DNA of 64,000 bases from Minisyncoccota bacterium. Its GTDB lineage: Bacteria; Patescibacteriota; Minisyncoccia; Phycocordibacterales; DATDWN01. The notes below the pieces were generated by a model that was not told the DNA's origin, ran no database searches, and worked only from the letters and a program-made list of their open reading frames with translations. The stretch is taken from contig DATDWZ010000008.1 of assembly GCA_036517295.1 (NCBI GenBank), forward strand, positions 304 through 64,303, read 5' to 3'. Shown here piece after piece: positions 1-42,296 of the stretch. The first letter of the stretch is position 1. Every line of letters starts with the position of its first letter. Made by a program: the position numbers and the translations under genes.

Positions 1-240
1 GTTCGAACAATTCCTCGACCAGAGCCTTCGCGACCTCCGGAGTCCGCGCTTTAGAGCGCAGAGAATCTGTGAGCGACCGTTCTTCTTCAAGCAGCGTGCG
101 TTTACGGCTCTCGAAATCTTCCTTGTTGAGAGTGCCGTCAACGAACGCGTCGATGAGACGGGTCAACCGCATCTGTATCGCGCCGATTTGCGCTTGCAAA
201 TGTGACTTCCGCTCGTCCTCACTCGCGTCGTCCTGCCGCT
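1..240 (-). pseudogene. Fragment of a large serine recombinase coiled-coil region (partial, runs off window start)
   Basis: Minus-strand translation of 1..240 gives ...QRQDDASEDERKSHLQAQIGAIQMRLTRLIDAFVDGTLNKEDFESRKRTLLEEERSLTDSLRSKARTPEVAKALVEELFE. This heptad-like coiled coil is typical of the C-terminal part of large serine recombinases. Its N-terminal side would lie where the + strand fragment sits, so it is a remnant or rearranged. Confidence 0.35.
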
Positions 241-242
241 GA

Positions 243-730
243 ACGGAATACACCTGCCAGAAGTGTAAGAACAAGATTCCGGCCGCTGACCTCGAAACCG
301 TGTTCCGGGAACAGCTCAAGGAATTCTTCCTATCGTCCGAGGAGCTGACCAACTACCTCGAACAGGCCGACGAGAAGGTAGTGGAGAAGCGCGAACTCCT
401 GGGAACCCTGGAGACGGACCGAGCGACCGTCCAGGCCGAGATGGAGAAGGTCTACAAGCTCTACGTCTCGGACCAAATCAGCGCCGATGGGTTCGGCCGG
501 ACATACAAGCCGCTCGAAGAACGCCTCAAGGCGCTCGACGACCAGCTCCCCAGGCTCCAGGCCGAACTCGATTTCCTGCGCATCAAGAACCTCTCCCGTG
601 ACGAAATCGTAAGCGAGGCCCAGGACCTCTATGGCCGGTGGTCGGATCTCCTGCCGGAGGAGAAGCGCCAGATTATTGAGAACGTGGTCGACCGCATCAC
701 CATCGACCTTTCATACGTTCCCTCTCCCTC
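243..730 (+). pseudogene. C-terminal fragment of a large serine recombinase (zinc-ribbon CxxC plus coiled coil); N-terminus missing
   Basis: The frame opens right after an in-frame TGA at 240-242. It reads ..TCQKCKNKIPAADLETVFREQLKEFFLSSEELTNYLEQ...RLQAELDFLRIKNLSRDEIVSEAQDLYGRWSDLLPEEKRQIIENVVDRITID, the recombinase zinc-ribbon/coiled-coil tail. It is oriented head-to-head with the minus-strand fragment at 1..240. Confidence 0.45.
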
Positions 731-756
731 TGAAATAGCCACAAAAAGGCAACGCG

Positions 757-792
757 ACCACACCCCTGCGTTGCCTTTTTGTACGGCGACCA
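757..792 (+). terminator. Putative intrinsic terminator hairpin (aggcaacgc/gcgttgcct) followed by TTTTTGT
   Basis: 9-bp GC-rich inverted repeat with a 12-nt loop and a T-tract. It lies inside the six-frame ORF 300..1214, which argues that ORF is really two genes. Confidence 0.4.
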
Positions 793-1214
793 TGAGAACC
801 GAACGGAAGCCAGAGGGATATCCCAGTGTTCTCAATAACTTAGCGGACCATTTGAAGAAGAGAATCCTCGACCTCGGAACCAATCAGAAAGAGGCGGCGA
901 GGCAGATTGGCGTCGGGACCGGGAGCTTCACGCATTGGATGAGAAAACACCGCAACCCGACCATTCGTCGCTGGCCGAAGGTCATCCAGTTCCTTGGATA
1001 CGACCCACGGCAGGCGTCGGAGGGCATCGGACAGGGCCTCGTTCGATGGCGACAGGGCAGAGGGATGTCACAGAAGGAATTGGCGGCGCAGCTCGACGTT
1101 GACCCGACCACGCTGGCCAAGTGGGAGCGTGGTGAACGTTGTCCGTCGGGCGACCGCCAGATGCAATGCACCATGCTCCTGTGCAATCTAGGCTTTCCGC
1201 GATTGCATCTGTAA
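792..1214 (+). CDS. Tandem helix-turn-helix (XRE-like) DNA-binding protein
   Basis: Starts at ATG 792, after the hairpin. There are two XRE-like HTH motifs: KKRILDLGTNQKEAARQIGVGTGSFTHWMRK and RWRQGRGMSQKELAAQLDVDPTTLAKWERGE. High GC. Confidence 0.45.
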   Translation: MRTERKPEGYPSVLNNLADHLKKRILDLGTNQKEAARQIGVGTGSFTHWMRKHRNPTIRRWPKVIQFLGYDPRQASEGIGQGLVRWRQGRGMSQKELAAQLDVDPTTLAKWERGERCPSGDRQMQCTMLLCNLGFPRLHL

Positions 1215-1321
1215 GCAGTTGACAATAAAGGACTTAGGAGGTACTCTAGTATTAGAAATCGTCTCGTCGGTAGGAGGAAGCGTTCCTTTTTCGAACGTTT
1301 CCTCGCTGCCTAGGAGGCGAC

Positions 1322-1525
1322 ATGCAGGACAAAGCGCAAGACTGCCTTCGATTTGAAGAACTACTTCGGCGTCTGGAACTCACAGACGACGAGGTCGATT
1401 TCTGCCTCAACCATCCGGGGGCGTGCGCGATTGGCGTACACACCCGAGAGGCTCAGACTCGGACCAGAAACGCCTTGCTGAGGTGGGTCGAAAGTCTCGG
1501 TCAACGGAGAGAACGGACCACGTAA
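1322..1525 (+). CDS. Small hypothetical protein (67 aa) with strong SD
   Basis: AGGAGG sits 7 nt upstream of ATG 1322. A terminator hairpin with T-tract lies at 1549..1572. Confidence 0.45.
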   Translation: MQDKAQDCLRFEELLRRLELTDDEVDFCLNHPGACAIGVHTREAQTRTRNALLRWVESLGQRRERTT

Positions 1526-1548
1526 CTTGCCACCGGCAGGTCCTGAAA

Positions 1549-1572
1549 GCCACCATTGCGGTGGCTTTTTTG
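1549..1572 (+). terminator. Intrinsic terminator gccacc-ATTGC-ggtggc + TTTTTT
   Basis: Perfect 6-bp GC stem, 5-nt loop, U-tract. Confidence 0.55.
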
Positions 1573-1669
1573 TGCTCTCGCGTCCCTACATCTTGCCAAA
1601 TAGACGAGACTTACCGGCGGCAGCCAAAAAAGATTCCCACGCTCGTCCAGGCCGGCCGAATATCCTTCC

Positions 1670-2806
1670 GTGAACGCCGCGCACTGTGCCATGGATGAAC
1701 ACAGCGAGCCACAGTTCAGGGACCTTGAGGAAGTCTTCGCGACCGGCGAGGACCAGGCGGCTGAGATCGCCCTCGAAAAGCTGCTTGAAATCCATGGACA
1801 CCGCGTCCGCCATTTTCTTTACAACGTCACGGATGTGGATGGCGCACATGAAGAGATATACGGAGACGCTTACGCGCAGGCGATCGACGACACGACCACG
1901 AACCAAATCACCAAGAAGAGTACCGAGCTAACGAAGAAGGTCATCACAGACAAGCTCAGACGCAGCTTCCAGGACGAACTGGTCGGCCTGGAATTCACCC
2001 ACCTCGCGGTTGAGATCCAGGCAGCGGGCGGCGCGAAGGGTGCGCTCCTTCACAAGCTGGCTTTCAGTAATGCTCCTGGCGTCACCGTCACAGATGTTCT
2101 CAGCGAGGGCGAATCGCGGGCCCTGTCCCTTGCGGCGTTCTTGACCGAATTAAGCACGGCCCCGACAAAGGCCGGGATCATATTCGACGATCCTGTGTCC
2201 TCATTGGATCACGTCTGGCGGGAGCGGATTGCCAAACGACTCGTGGCGGAAGCGAAGGACCGCCAGGTCATCGTCTTCACGCACGACCTGTTTTTTCTTC
2301 GAAGTCTGCTCGCAACATGCGACAGAGAATCTGTTCCGCTTCAACATCAGTACGTTCGCCGCGATGGCCAGGCTGGCATCTGCTCACCTGACCTCCCGTG
2401 GGTCGCGATGAACGTGAAGAGCAGAATTGGCGTCCTCCGACAGCGCTGGCAGGCGGCCGACAAGCTCCAGAGAACCGTGGGAAACCAAGCGTACGAGCCT
2501 GCTGCCCGCGAAATATTTGGTCTGCTTCGCGAGGCCTGGGAGCGTGGCGTGACCGAAGTCCTGCTCAATGACGTCGTCGAGCGTTACCGCCCTGCAATTG
2601 AAACGAAGAAGGTCGCGATTCTGCACGACATCACGAATGCGGACTGCAAGGCAGTTGATGATGGGATGGCAGAGTGCTCGCGGTGGATGCGTGGACATGA
2701 CGAGTCGATGGCAGACGGGACGCCGTTTCCGACGCCGGCACAGCTTAAGACAAGGATCGACGAACTTGAGGGCTGGGCAAAGGGCATTCGAGCCAAACGG
2801 ACCTGA
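1670..2806 (+). pseudogene. 5'-truncated PrrC/RloC-like ABC-type ATPase with C-terminal HEPN-like domain (no Walker A)
   Basis: ABC signature LSEGESRAL, Walker B IIFDDPVSSLD (D-loop) and H-loop VIVFTHDLFF are present. There is no GxxxxGK[ST] anywhere in the 378 aa. The C-terminal domain contains SRWMRGH (an Rx4H HEPN-type motif). The fold assignment is an inference. Confidence 0.45.
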
Positions 2807-2925
2807 GTCGACGGGTGGCACTGGCCGCACATCAGGCTGCTTCGCCACGGCCTGCTAGGCCATGCCGTGGTCAGCTTGCCGTCGTGATGGCCGCGTGAAG
2901 ATTGTTCAGGCGTTCAAAGCCGCAT

Positions 2926-4074
2926 TTACTGCCAAGGCCACGCGCCTTTTGCGGCGAACCCGAGAAGCACAGCCGCGGCTCCCCAAAGTACCGCCCTGTT
3001 ATGGACAAGTCTCAGGCTCACGGGGTCGTGTGTGGCGCGCACTAGAATGGGCAACACTGCGCGGTCGACCACAAGTACCACAGCCATCACTAGAGTTCCG
3101 AATGGGATTAGGGTTACGTAAAGATTCGATTCCGCTGCTATCGAAAGTGGAGCAGCAAGGAACTCGACAACGCCCGAAGGTATGGGCAGCACACCATTCA
3201 TGGCGAGCATCAGGGGAATGCGCGGCAGGATGTTCAGGGCGACAAGTAGACCAAGACTTGAGACGATTAGGCCGAATGCTCGCCACCTGCTCGATCTCGA
3301 TGCTCGCGTGAGAATCCGTCGAAAGACAGCGATGACTGCGAAATCTGCAAGGGCTCCGATGAGCCAGCCAGGAAGAAGTGGAAGTAGGACCGCAGGCGAG
3401 GTTACGAAAACATACTTTGTGGTGCTCGTAGGCTGTGAGCCGACCTCGATAGTGAACCAGCCGCCGATGTGGACCGCGAATGGGGAAAACAACGGTGAGA
3501 ACGACGCAAATAGAGTCAAGCAGATTAAGAGAGCCAAGGTCAGATTCTGAAGCGCCCTGGCGATGATTAGCCAGAACCGTCTTGTGGCAAAGACAGTCAC
3601 AACAAACGTCGAGGCGAGTATCGCCCCGGCCGCGCTGAGGAAGAGCCCGGCGACCTTCGCTGATGCTCTGGTGATCTCGCTTTGCACTATGCCGCGCAGA
3701 AATTGAAGGGGCTCGCCGTCTGTGAAATCATCCGGCGACAATAAGAACGCAATAGCGTACAAACCAACACCTTCTGTGACGAGCACTGACGACAGTGACA
3801 GAAGGAGCGCGGCATTGAAGGCGCGTCGAGACCATATGGTTGGGCCATAGACCTTATTGAGGAGGAGCGTTCCTATCGAGGCAAAGCCACGCATCCAACC
3901 TAAGTGACGGTTCGTTGTTGTTGCGCGGACTTCGGCAAGTCGGAGCCACCAAGTCTCCAGCGAGCTTTGGAGGACGCCTCGTTCGTCTGGGAACATGAAT
4001 AGGGCGATGTAAATCAGCAATAAAGCTGCACATAGTGCGAGACCCCGAAGAACGACCTCGGCTACGAGCAGCAT
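2926..4074 (-). CDS. Polytopic integral membrane protein, function unknown
   Basis: 382 aa with about 10 hydrophobic segments. High GC. No recognisable motif. Confidence 0.55.
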   Translation of the reverse strand: MLLVAEVVLRGLALCAALLLIYIALFMFPDERGVLQSSLETWWLRLAEVRATTTNRHLGWMRGFASIGTLLLNKVYGPTIWSRRAFNAALLLSLSSVLVTEGVGLYAIAFLLSPDDFTDGEPLQFLRGIVQSEITRASAKVAGLFLSAAGAILASTFVVTVFATRRFWLIIARALQNLTLALLICLTLFASFSPLFSPFAVHIGGWFTIEVGSQPTSTTKYVFVTSPAVLLPLLPGWLIGALADFAVIAVFRRILTRASRSSRWRAFGLIVSSLGLLVALNILPRIPLMLAMNGVLPIPSGVVEFLAAPLSIAAESNLYVTLIPFGTLVMAVVLVVDRAVLPILVRATHDPVSLRLVHNRAVLWGAAAVLLGFAAKGAWPWQ

Positions 4075-15289: not shown

Positions 15290-15800
15290 CACTGTCTACC
15301 ATAGTTATCCCCCTCCTGTGGATAATTCAAGTATAGGAAAAGACCGAGAATTCTCGGCCTTTGAAAGATGGGAGGGTGGAGTTCTCCCCCGCATGGTACC
15401 TTGAGAAAACATACCAAGGCTCACACCACAGTGGTAAGACGGAACACACTGGTAACCCCGGTCAATCGCAGGGCTCCACCCTCCTACTGCGGAGAATAGC
15501 ATACTACATATAAAAATCAATTAATATAAGAAAGGGACCCGCCATTCGCCGAAGCGACTGCGGGCCCCAGTGGAAGGGCACTTCCTCTCTCTGTCTAGGC
15601 GGACCTGCAGATCCGCCACCCATCGCCCAGAAACTAAACTTCTGAGCGCAGGATTTCAACTGAGCCGTCTCTAACGCTGCACAGCGACCCGCTTTTCGAC
15701 GTCGCTTACGTCGTCACACCACGAATTCCCTGCTCTCGCGGCCCGTCCAGGCCCGCACGCTGGGGTGGCGATTGTGCGCTATGCAAACCGTTTTTATTAG
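15290..15800. ncRNA. GC-rich, highly structured non-coding island (candidate structured RNA; identity unresolved)
   Basis: ~55-60% GC within ~38% GC flanks. An 11-bp long-range pairing, gggagggtggag (15371) with ctccaccctcc (15470), encloses nested hairpins (ccttg...caagg; cagtg...cactg). Many further GC hairpins follow at 15530-15780. No convincing ORF. It lies between lysS and mraZ. Confidence 0.25.
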
Positions 15801-15916
15801 ACTGCCCGCTTCCGTTTGAAATTATAGCATAGTATATATTAGGTGTCAAGTATTTTTGGTATCCCAAAAAAGCCCTTATTTTAAGGACTTTTTAGAGTAA
15901 ACTAAAATAATCATGC

Positions 15917-17812
15917 TTATTTAAACAATTCCAATCCTTTGGTTAATTCATCCACTTCAGACTTTGGACCAAATATAAGGAGCCCAAGAAAATCAATGTC
16001 TTTTACATCCTTCGCTTTCGTCCATTCAACCACTTTGTTATCACTTGTTGTTTCTATCATCTCTTTTGTAAAGTGAGCAATTTCCAATCCCCTTTCTTGG
16101 GCCAAGTCCGATAGTCTCCAGATATCCTCCGAACTTCCGGCGGTCTTTATCATGATTGCGTGTCGGATATTCAATCTTATATTTTTATTGTCTTGAGTTT
16201 TTATGGAATCGAATTTAAAAAGATTATTTTTCGACCGTGCGCCAAAAGCCACACCGAGATGAGCGATGGTATTTGCAACCTTCCAGGGTTCCAGATTCAA
16301 CCCTTTATTTATTATGGCTGTCACGACCCAAGTCGCCTTATCTTTCTTTTTTATTTCCTCCAGAGGTCTCATCAGCGGGAAAGCTTGCAGTTCGCGAAGT
16401 GGTTTATCCGCCAGAAAAGCAAAGAGTCTCTCGCCGAAACCGAACCCACAGGTGGGAGGCATACCGTGTTCCAGCATTTCCACAAATTCATCATCCTGCA
16501 TCATGGCCTCCGTATCGCCGGCATCTATCAACCTCTGTTGAGCCTCAAATCTCTGTTTTTGATCAATCGGATCATTCAACTCGGAATAACCGTTCCCGAC
16601 TTCACTGCCGGCAATAATCGGCTGAAATCTTTGGGCGGTTTTTATATTATCCGGGTTCGCTTTTGACAGTGGTGCAACCAGAGTCGGATGGTTTATGAGA
16701 AAGGCCGGGCCGGAAATCTGCCTACGGCAATATTTCCATAAGGTATCCGTCAGCCTCTCCTTATTGTCTCCTTCATACTTTACACCGAGCTCATCCAATT
16801 TCTTTTTCATATCACCTTCGCTCGCGGTTAACAAATCAATGTTGGTCATTTCTTTCACTTTTGAAACATAGTCTATTTTTTTCCATTCATCGGCCAAATC
16901 GAAAGAGTGTCCGTGAGTGGTAAACTTTGTAGTACCAAAAACTTTTTTGGCAATCTCAATATACATTTCCCGCACCAATTCCATACCATCGTTATAATCG
17001 GCAAAGGACCAGTAAAATTCCATGTTCGTAAATTCTTGAGCGTGCTCGGGAGAAGTCCCCTCATTCCGATATGCCTTTCCTATCTCAAAAGTCTTTGGGA
17101 AGCCACCGGCCATAAGTCTCTTCTGCCACAATTCGCCTATCGATATGCGTAAATAAACATCGAGGTCATAATCGTTGTGGTGTGTTCTGAATGGAGTGGC
17201 CTCCGCGCCTCCAGTGGTGGTTTCAAGAGTCGGGGTCTCAACTTCGAGAAACCCTTTGCTCTTCATAAACTCCCGAGTTACATCCCAGAATTTGGATTTT
17301 TTTACTATCAAATCGCGTAACTCGCCGTTCATTAAAAAATCCAGGTATCGCTTTCTATACCTTTCATCAACATCCTGTAATCCGTGCCATTTTTCCGGTA
17401 ACGGCAGGATGGACTTACAGGCCATGACCCAAGAATTAACTATGATACTTTGTTCGCCTGTTTTAGAAACCGCAGGAACGCCGGTAATAGAAATAAAATC
17501 TCCAACATCGATGGTGTCCGTAAATAAAGAAAAATTATCGACCTTTATTTCATCCTTTTTTACAATAGCCTGAATCCTTTCCGTTCCATCAAAAAGCACG
17601 GCAAAAAGTATGGCCCCCTGGCCACGCAGAGCCATTACTCTTCCGGCTACAGAAACCGGTTTGCCCGATTTACTCCTTGTATCAAATTCGGATTTTAAAA
17701 TAGATATCGGAAAATCTCGTGGGACTTTTGCCGGATATGGGTTTATACCTTTACTTTTCAGTATTTCAAGCTTTTGTAATCGCGCTTGCCTTATTTCTTC
17801 TAGTGAGGCCAT
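15917..17812 (-). CDS. lysS: Lysine--tRNA ligase (class II) with ~140-aa C-terminal PTH2/DUF2000-like domain
   Basis: Class II LysRS core (anticodon-binding OB fold, then motifs through ...GMPPTCGFGFGERL). The C-terminal extension TWVVTAIINKGLNLEPWKVANTIAHLGVAFGA...LLIFGPKSEVDELTKGLELFK resembles the peptidyl-tRNA hydrolase PTH2 fold (VIVVRTDL...AQ..HA ... AIGP...VTG.LKLL). Confidence 0.85.
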   Translation of the reverse strand: MASLEEIRQARLQKLEILKSKGINPYPAKVPRDFPISILKSEFDTRSKSGKPVSVAGRVMALRGQGAILFAVLFDGTERIQAIVKKDEIKVDNFSLFTDTIDVGDFISITGVPAVSKTGEQSIIVNSWVMACKSILPLPEKWHGLQDVDERYRKRYLDFLMNGELRDLIVKKSKFWDVTREFMKSKGFLEVETPTLETTTGGAEATPFRTHHNDYDLDVYLRISIGELWQKRLMAGGFPKTFEIGKAYRNEGTSPEHAQEFTNMEFYWSFADYNDGMELVREMYIEIAKKVFGTTKFTTHGHSFDLADEWKKIDYVSKVKEMTNIDLLTASEGDMKKKLDELGVKYEGDNKERLTDTLWKYCRRQISGPAFLINHPTLVAPLSKANPDNIKTAQRFQPIIAGSEVGNGYSELNDPIDQKQRFEAQQRLIDAGDTEAMMQDDEFVEMLEHGMPPTCGFGFGERLFAFLADKPLRELQAFPLMRPLEEIKKKDKATWVVTAIINKGLNLEPWKVANTIAHLGVAFGARSKNNLFKFDSIKTQDNKNIRLNIRHAIMIKTAGSSEDIWRLSDLAQERGLEIAHFTKEMIETTSDNKVVEWTKAKDVKDIDFLGLLIFGPKSEVDELTKGLELFK

Positions 17813-34478: not shown

Positions 34479-34597
34479 ATACATACTATTATACACTGTC
34501 AAAAAAGGCCGACAAGGAATTGCATTACTTCATATTTTTGCTATTATCTCTAAGTGCATAAAAAATGCATATGTTAATTTGAAAACGGTTAGTAAGC

Positions 34598-34915
34598 TCC
34601 GGTGTAGCTCAGTGGTAGAGCAATCGCCTGTACCGAAAGGTTGTGCAGCTTCCTAAAGTAATTTAGGATGAAAAATGAGGTGAATTCGGGGAACCCCACA
34701 GTTTAATAGCTGAGGGCAATCCCGAGCCAAGTCCCGAGAGAAATCGAGGGAAAGGTGTAGAGACTATCTCGTAAGAGAGTAGCCGTCACGCAAGTGAGTA
34801 GGCGAAGCGCCCCACATCCCACTCAGAAATGAAGGATGATGATATAGTCCAGACCAAAGGCAACTTTGGATAAAATGTAAGCGATTGGTCGTAGGTTCGA
34901 TCCCTACCGCCGGAG
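34598..34915 (+). tRNA. tRNA-Asn(GUU) interrupted by a group I intron in the anticodon loop (exons 34598-34631 and 34878-34915; CCA not encoded)
   Basis: Acceptor tccggtg/cgccgga (U1-A72, G73 as in Asn). D-arm gctc-agtggta-gagc. Anticodon stem atcgc/gcgat with loop CUGU|UAA after splicing. T-arm gtagg-ttcgatc-cctac. 5' exon ends in U; intron ends in G. Confidence 0.7.
34632..34877 (+). ncRNA. Group I intron (IC3-like, tRNA anticodon-loop type), ~246 nt
   Basis: Conserved core strings AAUCCCGAGCCAAGUCCCGAGAG (cf. AAUCCUGAGCCAAGCCGAAG), AAGGUGUAGAGACUA (P7; cf. GGUGUAGAGACUA) and UCGGGGAACCCC. Ends with omega-G. Confidence 0.7.
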
Positions 34916-36562
34916 CAATGGTCGTGAAAGAGGTATAATTTGCCTCTGTCGTGGCTTTACCAGGGACTTTTTTGAGGTTCGAAAATGATTTCGAGGCTCC
35001 GGAAGTTCCACAAATGGTTGAGAACTCGTTTTTAACAAGGAACCGCCAGCCGTAAGGGTTTTGGTGGTTTTTTGTGCTTGTTCGAAAGTTTTCTCTTGAT
35101 CTAGTCGTTGCTGTACTCTTTCCGCAAGTTTCTGAACTGGAGTTTTCATTGTCGGAGTTACTTCTTTATCTGTAAGTATTAAGTTCGAAAAGATATGACT
35201 CAAAAGTAATCTTCTGTCTTCGGGAGACCTTTTCTCGTATATCTCTCTTGCTCTCCTAGCAAGGTCAATTATATTCAACCAGATTTCAAAATACTTTGCT
35301 TCTTCAGTCTTAATCCTACCAAGTTGTTCTATCACAGCATTTTGCTCTTCTATTATTTCCTTATTTTTTATCTCCCAACGCTCTCTTGTAATTCTCTCAT
35401 CAAGACGGTCATCATATACGTTATCTAAACGTCTCTGTAGTGAGCTGTAGCGGTCGTTAAGCCCCTTGATAGCACTTTCCTTGTACTCTATCTCTTGGGC
35501 GTGGTTTTCCTTAATTTTAACCTTAATTTGCTCTGCCTCTTCTGGTGTTATGGTTTCAAAGAACTTAAAGACTCCAAAGAGTTTGTCTTCGAGTTCCTTT
35601 TCCGGTGCATACTTTTTCTGAGAGCAGTTTCGGTAATGATTGCAGTGATAATAGACTATTCCTTTCTGTATTTCTGCCGTAATAGTCCCACTACATTCTC
35701 CACAGATAAACATTTTTCTAAATTGAAACTCGTGGCGGTTAAAGTGAGGAGTCTTTTTACCCATTCTAATATCTCTAACCTTTTCAAATAACTCTTTGGT
35801 GATAAGGGGTTCGTGAGACCCATTACTAAAAACCTCATCATTCCATTCCATCGCTCCATAGTAAAAAGGATTATTAAGAATACTCTCAATAACACTTTTT
35901 ACCATCTTCTTACCAGATCGAGTCCGAAATCCCTCTTTGTAAAACATCTCAATCACGGCTTTCATAGAATAGTTACCAGAACCATAAAGTTCAAACATCC
36001 TTTTTACGAATGGAGCGATTTCTTGATCTATTATGTGTGTTTTATGTCCCTTCTCACCAATGGTTTTATATCCGAGTGGAGGTTTTGTTGGTAACCACCC
36101 TTGAGCAAGTTTTTCTTTCTGACCCTTTTTTACCTCTTCAGATAGATTTGAAATAAACTTCTTAGCTAGAACTATTTCAATATCCCAGCGAAACTTTTCG
36201 TCAGATTTAGCGTTCTTATGGATAATCAGATTTTGCTTAACAAAATGTATTTGCCTAGAAACATCTCCCTCAACCCAATCGTTAATCGCTAGTGCTTCCT
36301 TGAAGTTGCGAGTAAGTCTATCTACTTTCTCACAGAGTAATATATTTACTTTATTTTTTTCCAAAAACTCTAACATTTCTGCAAAAACCACTCGTTGTTT
36401 TGCACCACTTGCTGACTCTGCAATCGAAAAGACTTTTATCATCTGAAAATCTTTTCGCTGAGCATATTCCTCCATAAGTTTAACCTGTGATGGCAAAGAA
36501 TAACCTGTTTCTTCTTGTTCTTTTGATGAAACTCTACAATAACTAACTGCTTTTATTTTCAT
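34904..36562 (-). CDS. Large serine recombinase (resolvase catalytic domain + recombinase domain + zinc ribbon + coiled coil)
   Basis: YCRVSSKEQ catalytic Ser motif. Recombinase domain. CGECSG...YYHC zinc ribbon. Long coiled coil. The 3' end overlaps the tRNA-Asn 3' end. Confidence 0.85.
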   Translation of the reverse strand: MKIKAVSYCRVSSKEQEETGYSLPSQVKLMEEYAQRKDFQMIKVFSIAESASGAKQRVVFAEMLEFLEKNKVNILLCEKVDRLTRNFKEALAINDWVEGDVSRQIHFVKQNLIIHKNAKSDEKFRWDIEIVLAKKFISNLSEEVKKGQKEKLAQGWLPTKPPLGYKTIGEKGHKTHIIDQEIAPFVKRMFELYGSGNYSMKAVIEMFYKEGFRTRSGKKMVKSVIESILNNPFYYGAMEWNDEVFSNGSHEPLITKELFEKVRDIRMGKKTPHFNRHEFQFRKMFICGECSGTITAEIQKGIVYYHCNHYRNCSQKKYAPEKELEDKLFGVFKFFETITPEEAEQIKVKIKENHAQEIEYKESAIKGLNDRYSSLQRRLDNVYDDRLDERITRERWEIKNKEIIEEQNAVIEQLGRIKTEEAKYFEIWLNIIDLARRAREIYEKRSPEDRRLLLSHIFSNLILTDKEVTPTMKTPVQKLAERVQQRLDQEKTFEQAQKTTKTLTAGGSLLKTSSQPFVELPEPRNHFRTSKKSLVKPRQRQIIPLSRPLLRR

Positions 36563-42005: not shown

Positions 42006-42296
42006 AGTTATAATTATACTTTACTATTCTTTACAAGCCAAACTCACGAAGTGGACAACCTTATGAACACAACATAATAAAAATAGTATTGGCAGATCAA
42101 TAACCTATGATATAATTCACCCACAACTGAATAAGCAGACCTAACCCTATAGTTTTTATTATAGGTATGGTTGCAGGTCGTATAAGGCACAAAGAACCCA
42201 TCGCAGGGTCGCCTTATACGCCTTATCGGGAAACCGGTATGAGGGACTTCGGTCTCTACCTGTGGTGGGCTTTTTGTATATAAAAATAGTAAAATT

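What the first reader, a model, noticed from the sequence alone, without database searches (positions are those of the whole stretch)
15917..16330. Lysyl-tRNA synthetase carries a C-terminal PTH2/DUF2000-like domain
After the complete class II LysRS core, the protein continues for about 140 aa. The pattern is TWVVTAIINKGLNLEPWKVANTIAHLGVAF...IMIKTAGSSEDIWRLSDLAQERGLEIAHF...DFLGLLIFGPKSEVDELTKGLELFK. This parallels the peptidyl-tRNA hydrolase 2 fold (VIVVRTDL..AQ..HA ... GLP.....DAG.T.....T.LAIGP....VD.VTG.LKLL). An aaRS fused in cis to a peptidyl-tRNA-hydrolase-like module suggests an editing or quality-control function for Lys-tRNA or peptidyl-tRNA. I am not aware of a described LysRS-PTH2 fusion.
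Basis: partly seen in the sequence, partly recalled or inferred. Interest (0 to 1): 0.6.

Follow-up and report, generated by a model that had tools for sequence, protein, structure and literature searches.

The report
LysRS with tethered Pth2-fold DUF2000 domain
The cell's ordinary lysine-tRNA charging enzyme here carries an extra, strongly conserved tail domain that is folded like a peptidyl-tRNA hydrolase but has no known function, and this hints at an undescribed tRNA clean-up step in ultra-small bacteria and archaea.

Summary
The ORF at 15917-17812 (-) encodes 631 aa: a complete class II LysRS (residues 1-481, above NCBIfam cut-offs), a 13-residue Lys/Glu-rich linker, and a Pfam DUF2000 domain (E 2e-19).

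The fusion is not an artefact:
- It was found at 56 loci from species-representative genomes, nearly all labelled Patescibacteria or DPANN. It sits at the housekeeping lysS locus.
- Where kept, the domain is as conserved as the LysRS core.
- It is nevertheless patchy: 114 of the 120 closest LysRS proteins lack it, including a fully syntenic relative.
- Some relatives add B3/4, AlaX-type or HDIG modules.

The Pth2 catalytic residues (recalled from memory) are not clearly retained. DUF2000 has its own conserved set (W510, N514, H518, D541, N548, M585, D591) on the equivalent structural elements.

Best reading, which is an inference: a tethered hydrolase-like quality-control module that acts on the acylated 3' end of tRNA-Lys. 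No paper in the searched library mentions DUF2000 or this fusion. It is a new variant of a known kind, of moderate-to-high interest.

The parts
15917..17812 (-). Whole gene: class II lysyl-tRNA synthetase with C-terminal DUF2000 domain (631 aa plus stop)
   Evidence: ORF. Pfam architecture. NCBIfam lysS models above cut-off. An identical protein, P0219, is in an independent assembly.
17429..17656 (-). OB-fold anticodon-binding domain (residues 53-128)
   Evidence: PF01336, E 9e-13.
16370..17371 (-). Class II catalytic core (residues 148-481). Motif 2 RNEG starts at residue 249 and motif 3 GFGFGER at residue 456.
   Evidence: PF00152, E 7e-66. Motifs located. Relatives without the domain end right after the equivalent of FPLMRP.
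16331..16369 (-). Flexible Lys/Glu-rich linker (residues 482-494, PLEEIKKKDKAT)
   Evidence: pLDDT is below 50 for residues 480-491 in the full-length model, whose pTM is 0.65. The first 10 residues of the extension model have pLDDT 72.
15920..16330 (-). DUF2000 / Pth2-fold domain (residues 495-631). Family-conserved residues are W510, N514, H518, D541, N548, F581, M585, D591, G610, G615, T624.
15917..15919 (-). Stop codon TAA
   Evidence: Sequence.

Best explanation
The gene is the organism's housekeeping class II LysRS. A mobile module of the Pth2 structural superfamily (Pfam DUF2000) is attached to its C-terminus by a disordered linker of about 13 residues.

Proposed mechanism:
- tRNA-Lys is held on the enzyme through anticodon recognition by the N-terminal OB domain.
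- The tethered domain samples the acylated CCA end.
- It hydrolyses ester-linked groups that should not be there, which frees tRNA-Lys for immediate correct recharging on the same enzyme.

The likely substrates are mis-acylated tRNA-Lys (post-transfer editing in cis) or N-blocked/peptidyl-tRNA-Lys (Pth-like recycling). I rate these two variants about equal.

Shown: domain identity, fold, homology to Pth2, flexible tether, strong conservation where present, restriction to LysRS in Patescibacteria and DPANN, and co-fusion with known editing-type modules in relatives.

Inferred: that the domain is catalytic, that the substrate is an acyl-tRNA ester, and that it acts on tRNA-Lys.
For: - Homology to Pth2, not mere resemblance: hhalign E 6.6e-5 with shared helix-1 A-H, the GP after the last strand, and the C-terminal (L/I)T(G/K)xLxL. 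12 of 67 members hit the Pfam PTH2 model.
- Conserved polar residues: N514, H518, D541, N548 and D591, plus W510 and M585, lie on helix 1, on the loop before strand 3 and on the segment after strand 4. These are the elements that align with Pth2's invariant K18/Q22/H25, G53-Q54 and D86-T90.
- Conservation: across 52 fused proteins the domain's median identity to the window is 50%, against 44.5% for the essential core.
- Architecture: every fusion found is to LysRS, at the conserved greA-lysS-mraZ housekeeping locus.
- Co-fused modules: relatives add a PheRS-type B3/4 domain or an AlaXM-type editing domain to the same polypeptide, and B3/4 is the neighbouring gene in a Woesearchaeota locus.
- Tether: the linker is disordered and no fixed docking is predicted. 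No core residue co-varies with presence of the domain.
- Own knowledge: Pth2 hydrolyses N-blocked aminoacyl-tRNA. Diacetyl-Lys-tRNA-Lys is the classical Pth substrate. tRNA-Lys is the limiting species when Pth fails in E. coli (Heurgue-Hamard et al. 1996).
Against: - No biochemical data exist for any DUF2000 protein. Pfam (2025 copy) and NCBI still call it unknown.
- The window protein itself does not hit the Pfam PTH2 model even at E 10.
- Of the Pth2 residues I recall as catalytic (S. solfataricus K18, D86, T90; from memory), K18 aligns to K511 here but to Gln in most relatives. D86 and T90 fall in a region with a 5-residue insertion where the alignment is unreliable.
- The domain is dispensable. 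114 of the 120 closest LysRS proteins (73-83% identical cores) lack it, and fused members are scattered in the tree. A fully syntenic relative ends at the core.
- Fused domains are on median near-neutral (pI 6.4), unlike the basic Pth2.
- Gene neighbourhoods of true free-standing DUF2000 genes show no translation link.
- AlaX or B3/4 modules on a LysRS could mean that LysRS is only a carrier for generic trans-acting factors, rather than that these domains act on tRNA-Lys.
Confidence: 0.45

Rival explanations
1. The domain is a non-catalytic tRNA acceptor-end or aminoacyl-tRNA binding module. It raises affinity for tRNA-Lys, or protects and hands off Lys-tRNA-Lys, and has kept the Pth2 fold but lost hydrolysis.
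For: The Pth2 catalytic Lys is Gln in most members, and D86/T90 are not clearly retained. The domain is dispensable among close relatives. Appended tRNA-binding domains are common in aaRS (own knowledge).
Against: The conserved residues are a polar Asn/His/Asp set plus an invariant Met, which is more typical of a catalytic or ligand pocket than of an RNA-backbone surface. The domain is near-neutral on median, pI 6.4. The co-fused partners are catalytic editing-type domains.
Confidence: 0.2
2. The domain binds or processes a small molecule tied to LysRS chemistry rather than tRNA, for example Ap4A or another adenylate side-product, or lysine or an analogue. It would then serve as a regulatory or detoxifying module.
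For: An HDIG phosphohydrolase domain is recurrently fused behind DUF2000 (L011, L014, L017, P0121, P0123, P0137) or encoded next to it (L016, L050, L002) in both Patescibacteria and DPANN. The HDIG tail matches the HD part of a NadD-HD fusion model weakly. Own knowledge: LysRS is a main Ap4A source and YqeK-type HD proteins hydrolyse Ap4A. Free-standing DUF2000 genes sit among metabolic genes such as NUDIX, GNAT and reductases.
Against: The only characterised relatives of the fold act on tRNA esters. B3/4 and AlaX co-fusions point to acyl-tRNA. The HDIG tail also resembles the HD part of a tRNA methyltransferase fusion, so it does not discriminate between the readings.
Confidence: 0.15
3. The extension is an artefact: a missed stop, a frameshift, or a chimeric assembly that joins lysS to a separate DUF2000 gene.
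For: Many database entries look like separate 119-aa or 150-aa DUF2000 proteins or split LysRS genes.
Against: The reading frame in the window is continuous, and an identical protein occurs in an independent assembly. 51 of 56 species-representative loci have one ORF of 616-715 aa (from the first ATG) spanning both parts, and two code-25 Gracilibacteria are contiguous. The apparent stand-alone forms are the artefacts: one is created by an N-run in a scaffold, and the 150-aa forms start at the Met of the LysRS FPLM(R/K)P motif.
Confidence: 0.01

Closest known systems
Peptidyl-tRNA hydrolase 2 (Pth2, Pfam PF01981; PDB 1XTY, 1WN2, 1Q7S, 2ZV3, 3ERJ, 1RLK)
   Different: The domain here is about 20-25 residues longer, with two extra helices between strand 4 and the last strand. 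The window protein does not reach the PTH2 model. Pth2's invariant R9, D11, K16-G-K18, Q22 and D86-x-G-x-T90 are replaced by a different conserved set. Pth2 is free-standing, whereas this domain is tethered to LysRS.
Atu0240 of Agrobacterium tumefaciens (PDB 2GAX), the only solved DUF2000 protein
   Different: Atu0240 is free-standing, has only 16% identity, and lacks several residues conserved in the LysRS-linked clade: it has F for H518, A for D541 and L for N548. Its function is unknown.
Cis and trans aminoacyl-tRNA editing domains (AlaRS/AlaX, ThrRS N2, PheRS B3/4, ProRS INS/YbaK/ProX, DTD)
   Same: In concept both are a hydrolytic module attached to or working with an aaRS to clear wrongly acylated tRNA. 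B3/4 and AlaXM-type domains occur in the same polypeptide as DUF2000 in some relatives.
   Different: The fold is different. No class II LysRS is known to have a post-transfer editing domain; LysRS is known for pre-transfer cyclisation of Hcy, Hse and Orn (own knowledge). Activity here is untested.
Other LysRS fusions and paralogues: LysX (MprF-LysRS) and EpmA/PoxA/GenX
   Same: They are also built on the class II LysRS catalytic core. The window core matches these models secondarily.
   Different: LysX carries an N-terminal membrane lysyl-PG synthase and EpmA lacks the OB domain. Neither has a Pth2-fold domain. The window protein passes the true lysS equivalog cut-off but not theirs.

Membership tests
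Class II lysyl-tRNA synthetase (lysS) | N-terminal OB anticodon-binding domain plus a class II catalytic core with motifs 2 and 3 | tested here: met
   PF01336 at 53-128 and PF00152 at 148-481. RNEG at 249 and GFGFGER at 456.
Class II lysyl-tRNA synthetase (lysS) | Score above the curated equivalog or subfamily cut-off | tested here: met
   PRK00484 scores 497.5 against 468, and TIGR00499 scores 439.2 against 427.6. LysX, EpmA, AspRS and AsnRS models are all below their cut-offs.
Class II lysyl-tRNA synthetase (lysS) | Housekeeping genomic position, and the only LysRS of the genome | tested here: inconclusive
   Synteny with greA, CMAS, mraZ, rsmH, ftsL and ftsI is shared with relatives. Whether a second LysRS exists elsewhere in the genome cannot be seen from 64 kb.
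Class II lysyl-tRNA synthetase (lysS) | Lysylation of tRNA-Lys | not testable with these tools
   This needs an enzyme assay.
DUF2000 (Pfam PF09391) | Match above the Pfam gathering score | tested here: met
   70.1 bits in the full protein and 74.6 bits alone, against a cut-off of 25.
DUF2000 (Pfam PF09391) | Fold of the family's solved structure 2GAX | tested here: met
DUF2000 (Pfam PF09391) | Family-wide conserved residues (W, N, H, D, N, F, M, D, G, G, T) | tested here: met
   All are present at 510, 514, 518, 541, 548, 581, 585, 591, 610, 615 and 624.
Peptidyl-tRNA hydrolase 2 (PF01981) | Match to the PTH2 profile | tested here: not met
   The window extension gives no PTH2 hit at E up to 10. 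Only 12 of 67 family members give sub-threshold hits, best E 6.8e-5.
Peptidyl-tRNA hydrolase 2 (PF01981) | Pth2 alpha/beta fold | tested here: met
Peptidyl-tRNA hydrolase 2 (PF01981) | Catalytic residues (S. solfataricus K18, D86, T90; recalled from memory, not verified in a held paper) | tested here: inconclusive
   K18 aligns with K511 here but with Gln in most relatives. H25 aligns with H518. The D86/T90 region has a 5-residue insertion, so the alignment is ambiguous. No residue-level structural superposition was possible because the tools do not return coordinates.
Peptidyl-tRNA hydrolase 2 (PF01981) | Hydrolysis of N-blocked aminoacyl-tRNA | not testable with these tools
   This needs an enzyme assay or complementation of an E. 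coli pth(ts) strain.
aaRS-appended editing domain (functional class) | Hydrolase-type domain in the same polypeptide as the synthetase, able to reach the CCA end | tested here: inconclusive
   The domain is tethered by a disordered linker. Relatives add B3/4 or AlaXM-type modules. Geometry relative to bound tRNA was not modelled.
aaRS-appended editing domain (functional class) | Deacylation of mischarged tRNA while sparing the cognate product | not testable with these tools
   This needs deacylation assays.

The most novel reading that the evidence does not exclude
DUF2000 is a previously unrecognised family of acyl-tRNA ester hydrolases. In Patescibacteria and DPANN it would give class II LysRS its first dedicated cis-acting post-transfer quality-control or recycling domain, specific for tRNA-Lys through the synthetase's own anticodon recognition. 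This would also assign a function to free-standing DUF2000 proteins in other bacteria by the fusion (Rosetta-stone) argument. Together with the B3/4, AlaX and HDIG add-ons, it would show that these minimal organisms use LysRS as a platform for tRNA 3'-end surveillance.
Probability: 0.35. Interest if true: 0.75.

Novelty: new variant of a known kind. Interest (0 to 1): 0.55.

Why it matters
Own knowledge: no class II LysRS is known to have a post-transfer editing or tRNA-recycling domain. LysRS is thought to rely on pre-transfer cyclisation of near-cognates.

A conserved Pth2-superfamily module on the housekeeping LysRS of many Patescibacteria and DPANN lineages points to an uncharacterised quality-control step. 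This holds all the more because some relatives pair it with B3/4, AlaX-type or HDIG modules. These organisms have minimal genomes, AT-rich coding and Lys-rich proteins.

It gives the first functional lead for an orphan Pfam family that has had a solved structure since 2006. It is also directly testable with standard Pth and deacylation assays.

The patchy presence among near-identical LysRS cores offers natural plus and minus pairs for comparison. The shared architecture in bacteria and archaea suggests transfer between the two domains of life.

Tried and rejected
- Literature: full-text searches for DUF2000, PF09391, Atu0240, 2GAX and IPR018988, and for combinations of LysRS, Pth, Patescibacteria, CPR, DPANN, editing and fused terms, found nothing relevant. 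One candidate paper (Burroughs and Aravind 2019) mentions neither Pth2 nor LysRS. Powers et al. 2005 is not held, and two Pth papers give no Pth2 catalytic residues. K18, D86 and T90 therefore rest on memory.
- Stand-alone Patescibacteria copies of 119 aa and 150-157 aa looked like free DUF2000 genes next to lysS, and the A-rich KKK linker suggested slippage. I rejected both ideas. One split is caused by a run of N. The 150-aa forms start at the Met of the LysRS FPLM(R/K)P motif. The 119-aa forms start at the conserved MNT, which lies inside helix 1 and so lacks strand 1.
- I looked for Pth1 or Pth2 genes in the window and in all fetched loci by tblastn and found none. This is uninformative over such short stretches.
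- I looked for LysRS core positions that co-vary with presence of the domain and found none.
- Neighbourhoods of true free-standing DUF2000 genes (140-143 aa) showed no conserved or translation-related partner.
- The full-length AF2 model gave no confident inter-domain docking (pTM 0.65).
- The broad DUF2000 alignment A3 was too diverse for the genome pattern scan, so A1 was used instead.
- The afdb50 fold library was unavailable.
- phmmer of the extension alone against PDB sequences found nothing. The profile was needed to reach 2GAX.
Full report
**1. Observation**

The minus strand carries one uninterrupted ORF, 17812 to 15917, of 631 aa. Pfam finds the OB anticodon-binding domain at residues 53-128 and the class II catalytic core at 148-481. 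After a short linker it finds DUF2000 (PF09391) at 506-631, with E 2.3e-19 in the whole protein and 9e-21 when the last 147 residues are scanned alone.

The synthetase part is a true LysRS. PRK00484 scores 497.5 bits against a cut-off of 468, and the TIGR00499 equivalog scores 439.2 against 427.6. The LysX, EpmA, AspRS and AsnRS models all stay below their cut-offs. Motif 2 (RNEG, residue 249) and motif 3 (GFGFGER, residue 456) are present.

The finding's coordinates 15917-16330 are exactly residues 495-631 plus the stop codon.

**2. Fold and homology of the extension**

I built an alignment of 117 sequences (A2) and used it for an AlphaFold2 model of the last 147 residues. The model has mean pLDDT 95.1 and pTM 0.86.

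- Foldseek ranks 2GAX first (E 6e-10). It then lists human, Pyrococcus, Methanocaldococcus, Archaeoglobus, Sulfolobus and Thermoplasma Pth2, all at probability 1.0.

At sequence level:
- A DUF2000-only profile (A3, 67 sequences) finds 2GAX at E 2.3e-14.
- 12 of the 67 members also touch the Pfam PTH2 model, best E 6.8e-5 (see also P0202).
- hhalign of A3 against an alignment of five Pth2 sequences taken from the PDB (A4) gives E 6.6e-5 and 64% probability. It pairs strand 1, the helix-1 A-H, the strand before the catalytic loop, the last strand with its GP, and the C-terminal LT(G/K)xLxL.

The domain is therefore a divergent homologue of Pth2 and a regular member of DUF2000.

**3. It is not an artefact, and it is widespread**

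A word-indexed profile search returned many PF00152+PF09391 proteins. Sources label them Patescibacteria (Staskawicz-, Parcu-, Dojka-, Kuenenbacteria) or DPANN (Woesearchaeota, Nanoarchaeia). An exhaustive HMMER search of 1.84 billion cluster representatives found about 20 clusters of 600-900 aa with DUF2000 at the C-terminus.

A pattern scan of one genome per GTDB species gave 56 loci.
- In 51 of them a single ORF of 616-715 aa (from the first ATG) spans both parts.
- Two ORFs are 833 and 839 aa.
- Two Gracilibacteria loci are contiguous across in-frame TGA codons, which Gracilibacteria read as a sense codon (code 25).
- One locus has a mid-gene frame break.

An identical 631-aa protein sits on an independent metagenome scaffold.

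The conserved neighbours are greA, mraZ, rsmH, ftsL, ftsI, serS and murF. This is the housekeeping lysS locus.

The apparent split or stand-alone copies are themselves artefacts. One is produced by an N-run. The 150-aa forms begin at the Met of the LysRS FPLM(R/K)P motif. Loci L002, L003 and L017 show frame breaks.

Every fusion partner seen is LysRS.

**4. Conserved where present, but patchy**

Over 52 fused proteins, the median identity to the window is 50.4% for the domain and 44.5% for the LysRS core. Selection on the domain is therefore at least as strong as on an essential enzyme.

Yet of the 120 LysRS proteins closest to the window core (73-83% identity, Paceibacterota/Zambryskibacteria), only 6 carry DUF2000. 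The rest stop at 481-496 aa, right after FPLMRPK. In a neighbour-joining tree the fused members are scattered, each next to unfused sisters.

Locus L060 is fully syntenic (greA-CMAS-lysS-mraZ-rsmH-ftsL-PBP) but lacks the domain. The window-specific DNA runs from 16385 to 15326.

No core residue tracks the presence of the domain. The full-length model leaves the linker (480-491) below pLDDT 50 with pTM 0.65. The domain is therefore a flexibly tethered accessory module that has been lost, or exchanged, repeatedly.

**5. Clues to function**

*(a) The conserved residues.* Residues conserved in both fused and true free-standing DUF2000 proteins are W510, N514, H518, D541, N548, F581, M585, D591, G610, G615 and T624.
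- They sit on helix 1, on the loop before strand 3 and on the segment after strand 4. These elements align with Pth2's invariant K18/Q22/H25, G53-Q54 and D86-T90.
- The identities differ, however. Pth2 K18 is Lys in the window (K511) but Gln in most relatives. The D86/T90 stretch carries an insertion, so its alignment is unreliable.
- That K18, D86 and T90 are the catalytic residues is my recollection of Fromant et al. 2005. I could not verify it in held papers.
- A His/Asp/Asn constellation is compatible with ester hydrolysis. For comparison, bacterial Pth1 uses His20 with Asn10 and Asp93 (PMC4929431). This is an analogy only.

*(b) Domain company.*
- P0177 is OB-LysRS-B3/4-DUF2000.
- P0134 is LysRS-DUF2000-AlaXM-like (NF040865, 121 bits).
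- P0121, P0123, P0137, L011, L014 and L017 add an HDIG domain.
- B3/4 is the upstream gene in Woesearchaeota locus L001. The HDIG homologue is a separate adjacent gene in L016, L050 and L002.
- B3/4 and AlaX are known acyl-tRNA editing folds (own knowledge).

*(c) Charge.* The fused domains are on median near-neutral (pI 6.4; 8.8 in the window), whereas Pth2 is 8.8-9.6. This argues mildly against a generic RNA-binding appendage.

*(d) Free-standing genes.* Neighbourhoods of free-standing DUF2000 genes are uninformative.

**6. Mechanism proposed**

The LysRS OB domain holds tRNA-Lys by its anticodon. The tethered Pth2-fold domain samples the acylated CCA end and removes acyl groups that should not be there. 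The freed tRNA-Lys can then be recharged on the same enzyme.

The acyl group could be a non-cognate amino acid (post-transfer editing) or an N-blocked or peptidyl group (Pth-like recycling). Two points from own knowledge make the second attractive: diacetyl-Lys-tRNA-Lys is the classical Pth substrate, and tRNA-Lys is the limiting species in Pth-deficient E. coli. The B3/4 and AlaX co-fusions favour the first. I cannot separate the two variants.

Confidence in the umbrella model is 0.45. The rivals are:
- a non-catalytic tRNA-end binding module (0.2);
- a small-molecule or Ap4A-linked role, suggested by the HDIG partner (0.15);
- an artefact (0.01, refuted).

**7. Comparison with what is known, and novelty**

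The protein is a member of class II LysRS and of DUF2000. It is not a member of the Pfam PTH2 family: the profile test was not met and the catalytic residues are inconclusive. It does share the fold and ancestry.

From own knowledge, I know of no LysRS with a post-transfer editing or recycling domain. Pfam (2025 copy) still lists DUF2000 as unknown, and no NCBIfam (June 2026) model covers the domain. No paper in a library of 8 million mentions DUF2000 or this fusion.

The architecture is nevertheless abundant in public data and has been auto-named 'DUF2000 family protein' or 'lysine--tRNA ligase'. I rate it a new variant of a known kind (an aaRS with an appended hydrolase-like module), with interest 0.55.

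The same architecture occurs in DPANN archaea at about 50% identity. From own knowledge, most archaea use class I LysRS, so this suggests transfer between the two ultra-small radiations.

Noticed in passing
window 15335-15849 (-), between the lysS-DUF2000 stop and mraZ: A perfect sigma-70 promoter (TTGACA, 17 nt, TG-TATAAT, 12/12) lies at 15849-15821. It is followed by two GC-rich segments, 15815-15525 (fold z -2.55) and 15500-15335 (z -3.63). Both have stable predicted folds and both end in a hairpin plus U-tract. There is no Rfam match at E below 0.4 and no tRNA or tmRNA. The segments are absent from the syntenic relative L060, except for an 83-nt piece at 15325-15247. They look like two unannotated small RNA genes.
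   Followed up: partly
window 34596-34917 (+): A tRNA gene has its anticodon loop interrupted by a group I intron (Rfam RF00028, 34630-34870, 75.6 bits). The exons read GCUCCGGUGUAGCUCAGUGGUAGAGCAAUCGCCU... and ...GCGAUUGGUCGUAGGUUCGAUCCCUACCGCCGGAGCA. ARAGORN misses it and finds no tRNA in the whole 64 kb. The anticodon was not settled (possibly GUU or GUA).
   Followed up: partly
window 42138-42257 (+): There is a LOOT RNA (Rfam RF03000, 72.9 bits against a gathering score of 46.4) in the most AT-rich part of the window (36-46 kb, GC 0.34).
   Followed up: no
window 1-4000: GC is 0.57-0.58 here, against 0.34-0.47 in most of the rest of the window. This could be foreign DNA or an assembly join.
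   Followed up: no
L011 6433-7020, L014 6436-7047, L017 6430-7062 (fused); L016 3924-4286, L050 1220-1609, L002 7981-8340 (adjacent genes): An HDIG-type HD phosphohydrolase domain is recurrently fused behind, or encoded next to, LysRS-DUF2000 in both Patescibacteria and DPANN. It weakly resembles the HD parts of NadD-HD and Trm56-HD fusion models. It could link to Ap4A turnover or to tRNA 3'-end repair.
   Followed up: partly
P0177 (906 aa), P0134 (622 aa, N-truncated); L001 4647-5351: Some LysRS variants carry extra editing-type modules. P0177 is OB-LysRS-B3/4-DUF2000 and P0134 is LysRS-DUF2000-AlaXM-like. In a Woesearchaeota contig, a B3/4 gene sits directly upstream of the LysRS.
   Followed up: partly
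L001, L011, L016, L025, L046, L050: DPANN archaea (Woesearchaeota, Nanoarchaeota, Nanoarchaeia) and one contig labelled Methanosarcinales carry the same bacterial-type class II LysRS-DUF2000. The domain is 48-54% identical to the window's, which suggests inter-domain transfer. In L001, the OB part and the catalytic+DUF2000 part are called as two genes in the same frame, about 200 bp apart.
   Followed up: partly
L068 2801-4335, L069 839-2373 (Babeliales): A true free-standing DUF2000 gene (141 aa) is flanked by a NUDIX hydrolase and a GNAT (Acetyltransf_3) gene on two independent contigs. GNAT toxins that acetylate aminoacyl-tRNA are countered by Pth (own knowledge), but this is a single lineage.
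   Followed up: no
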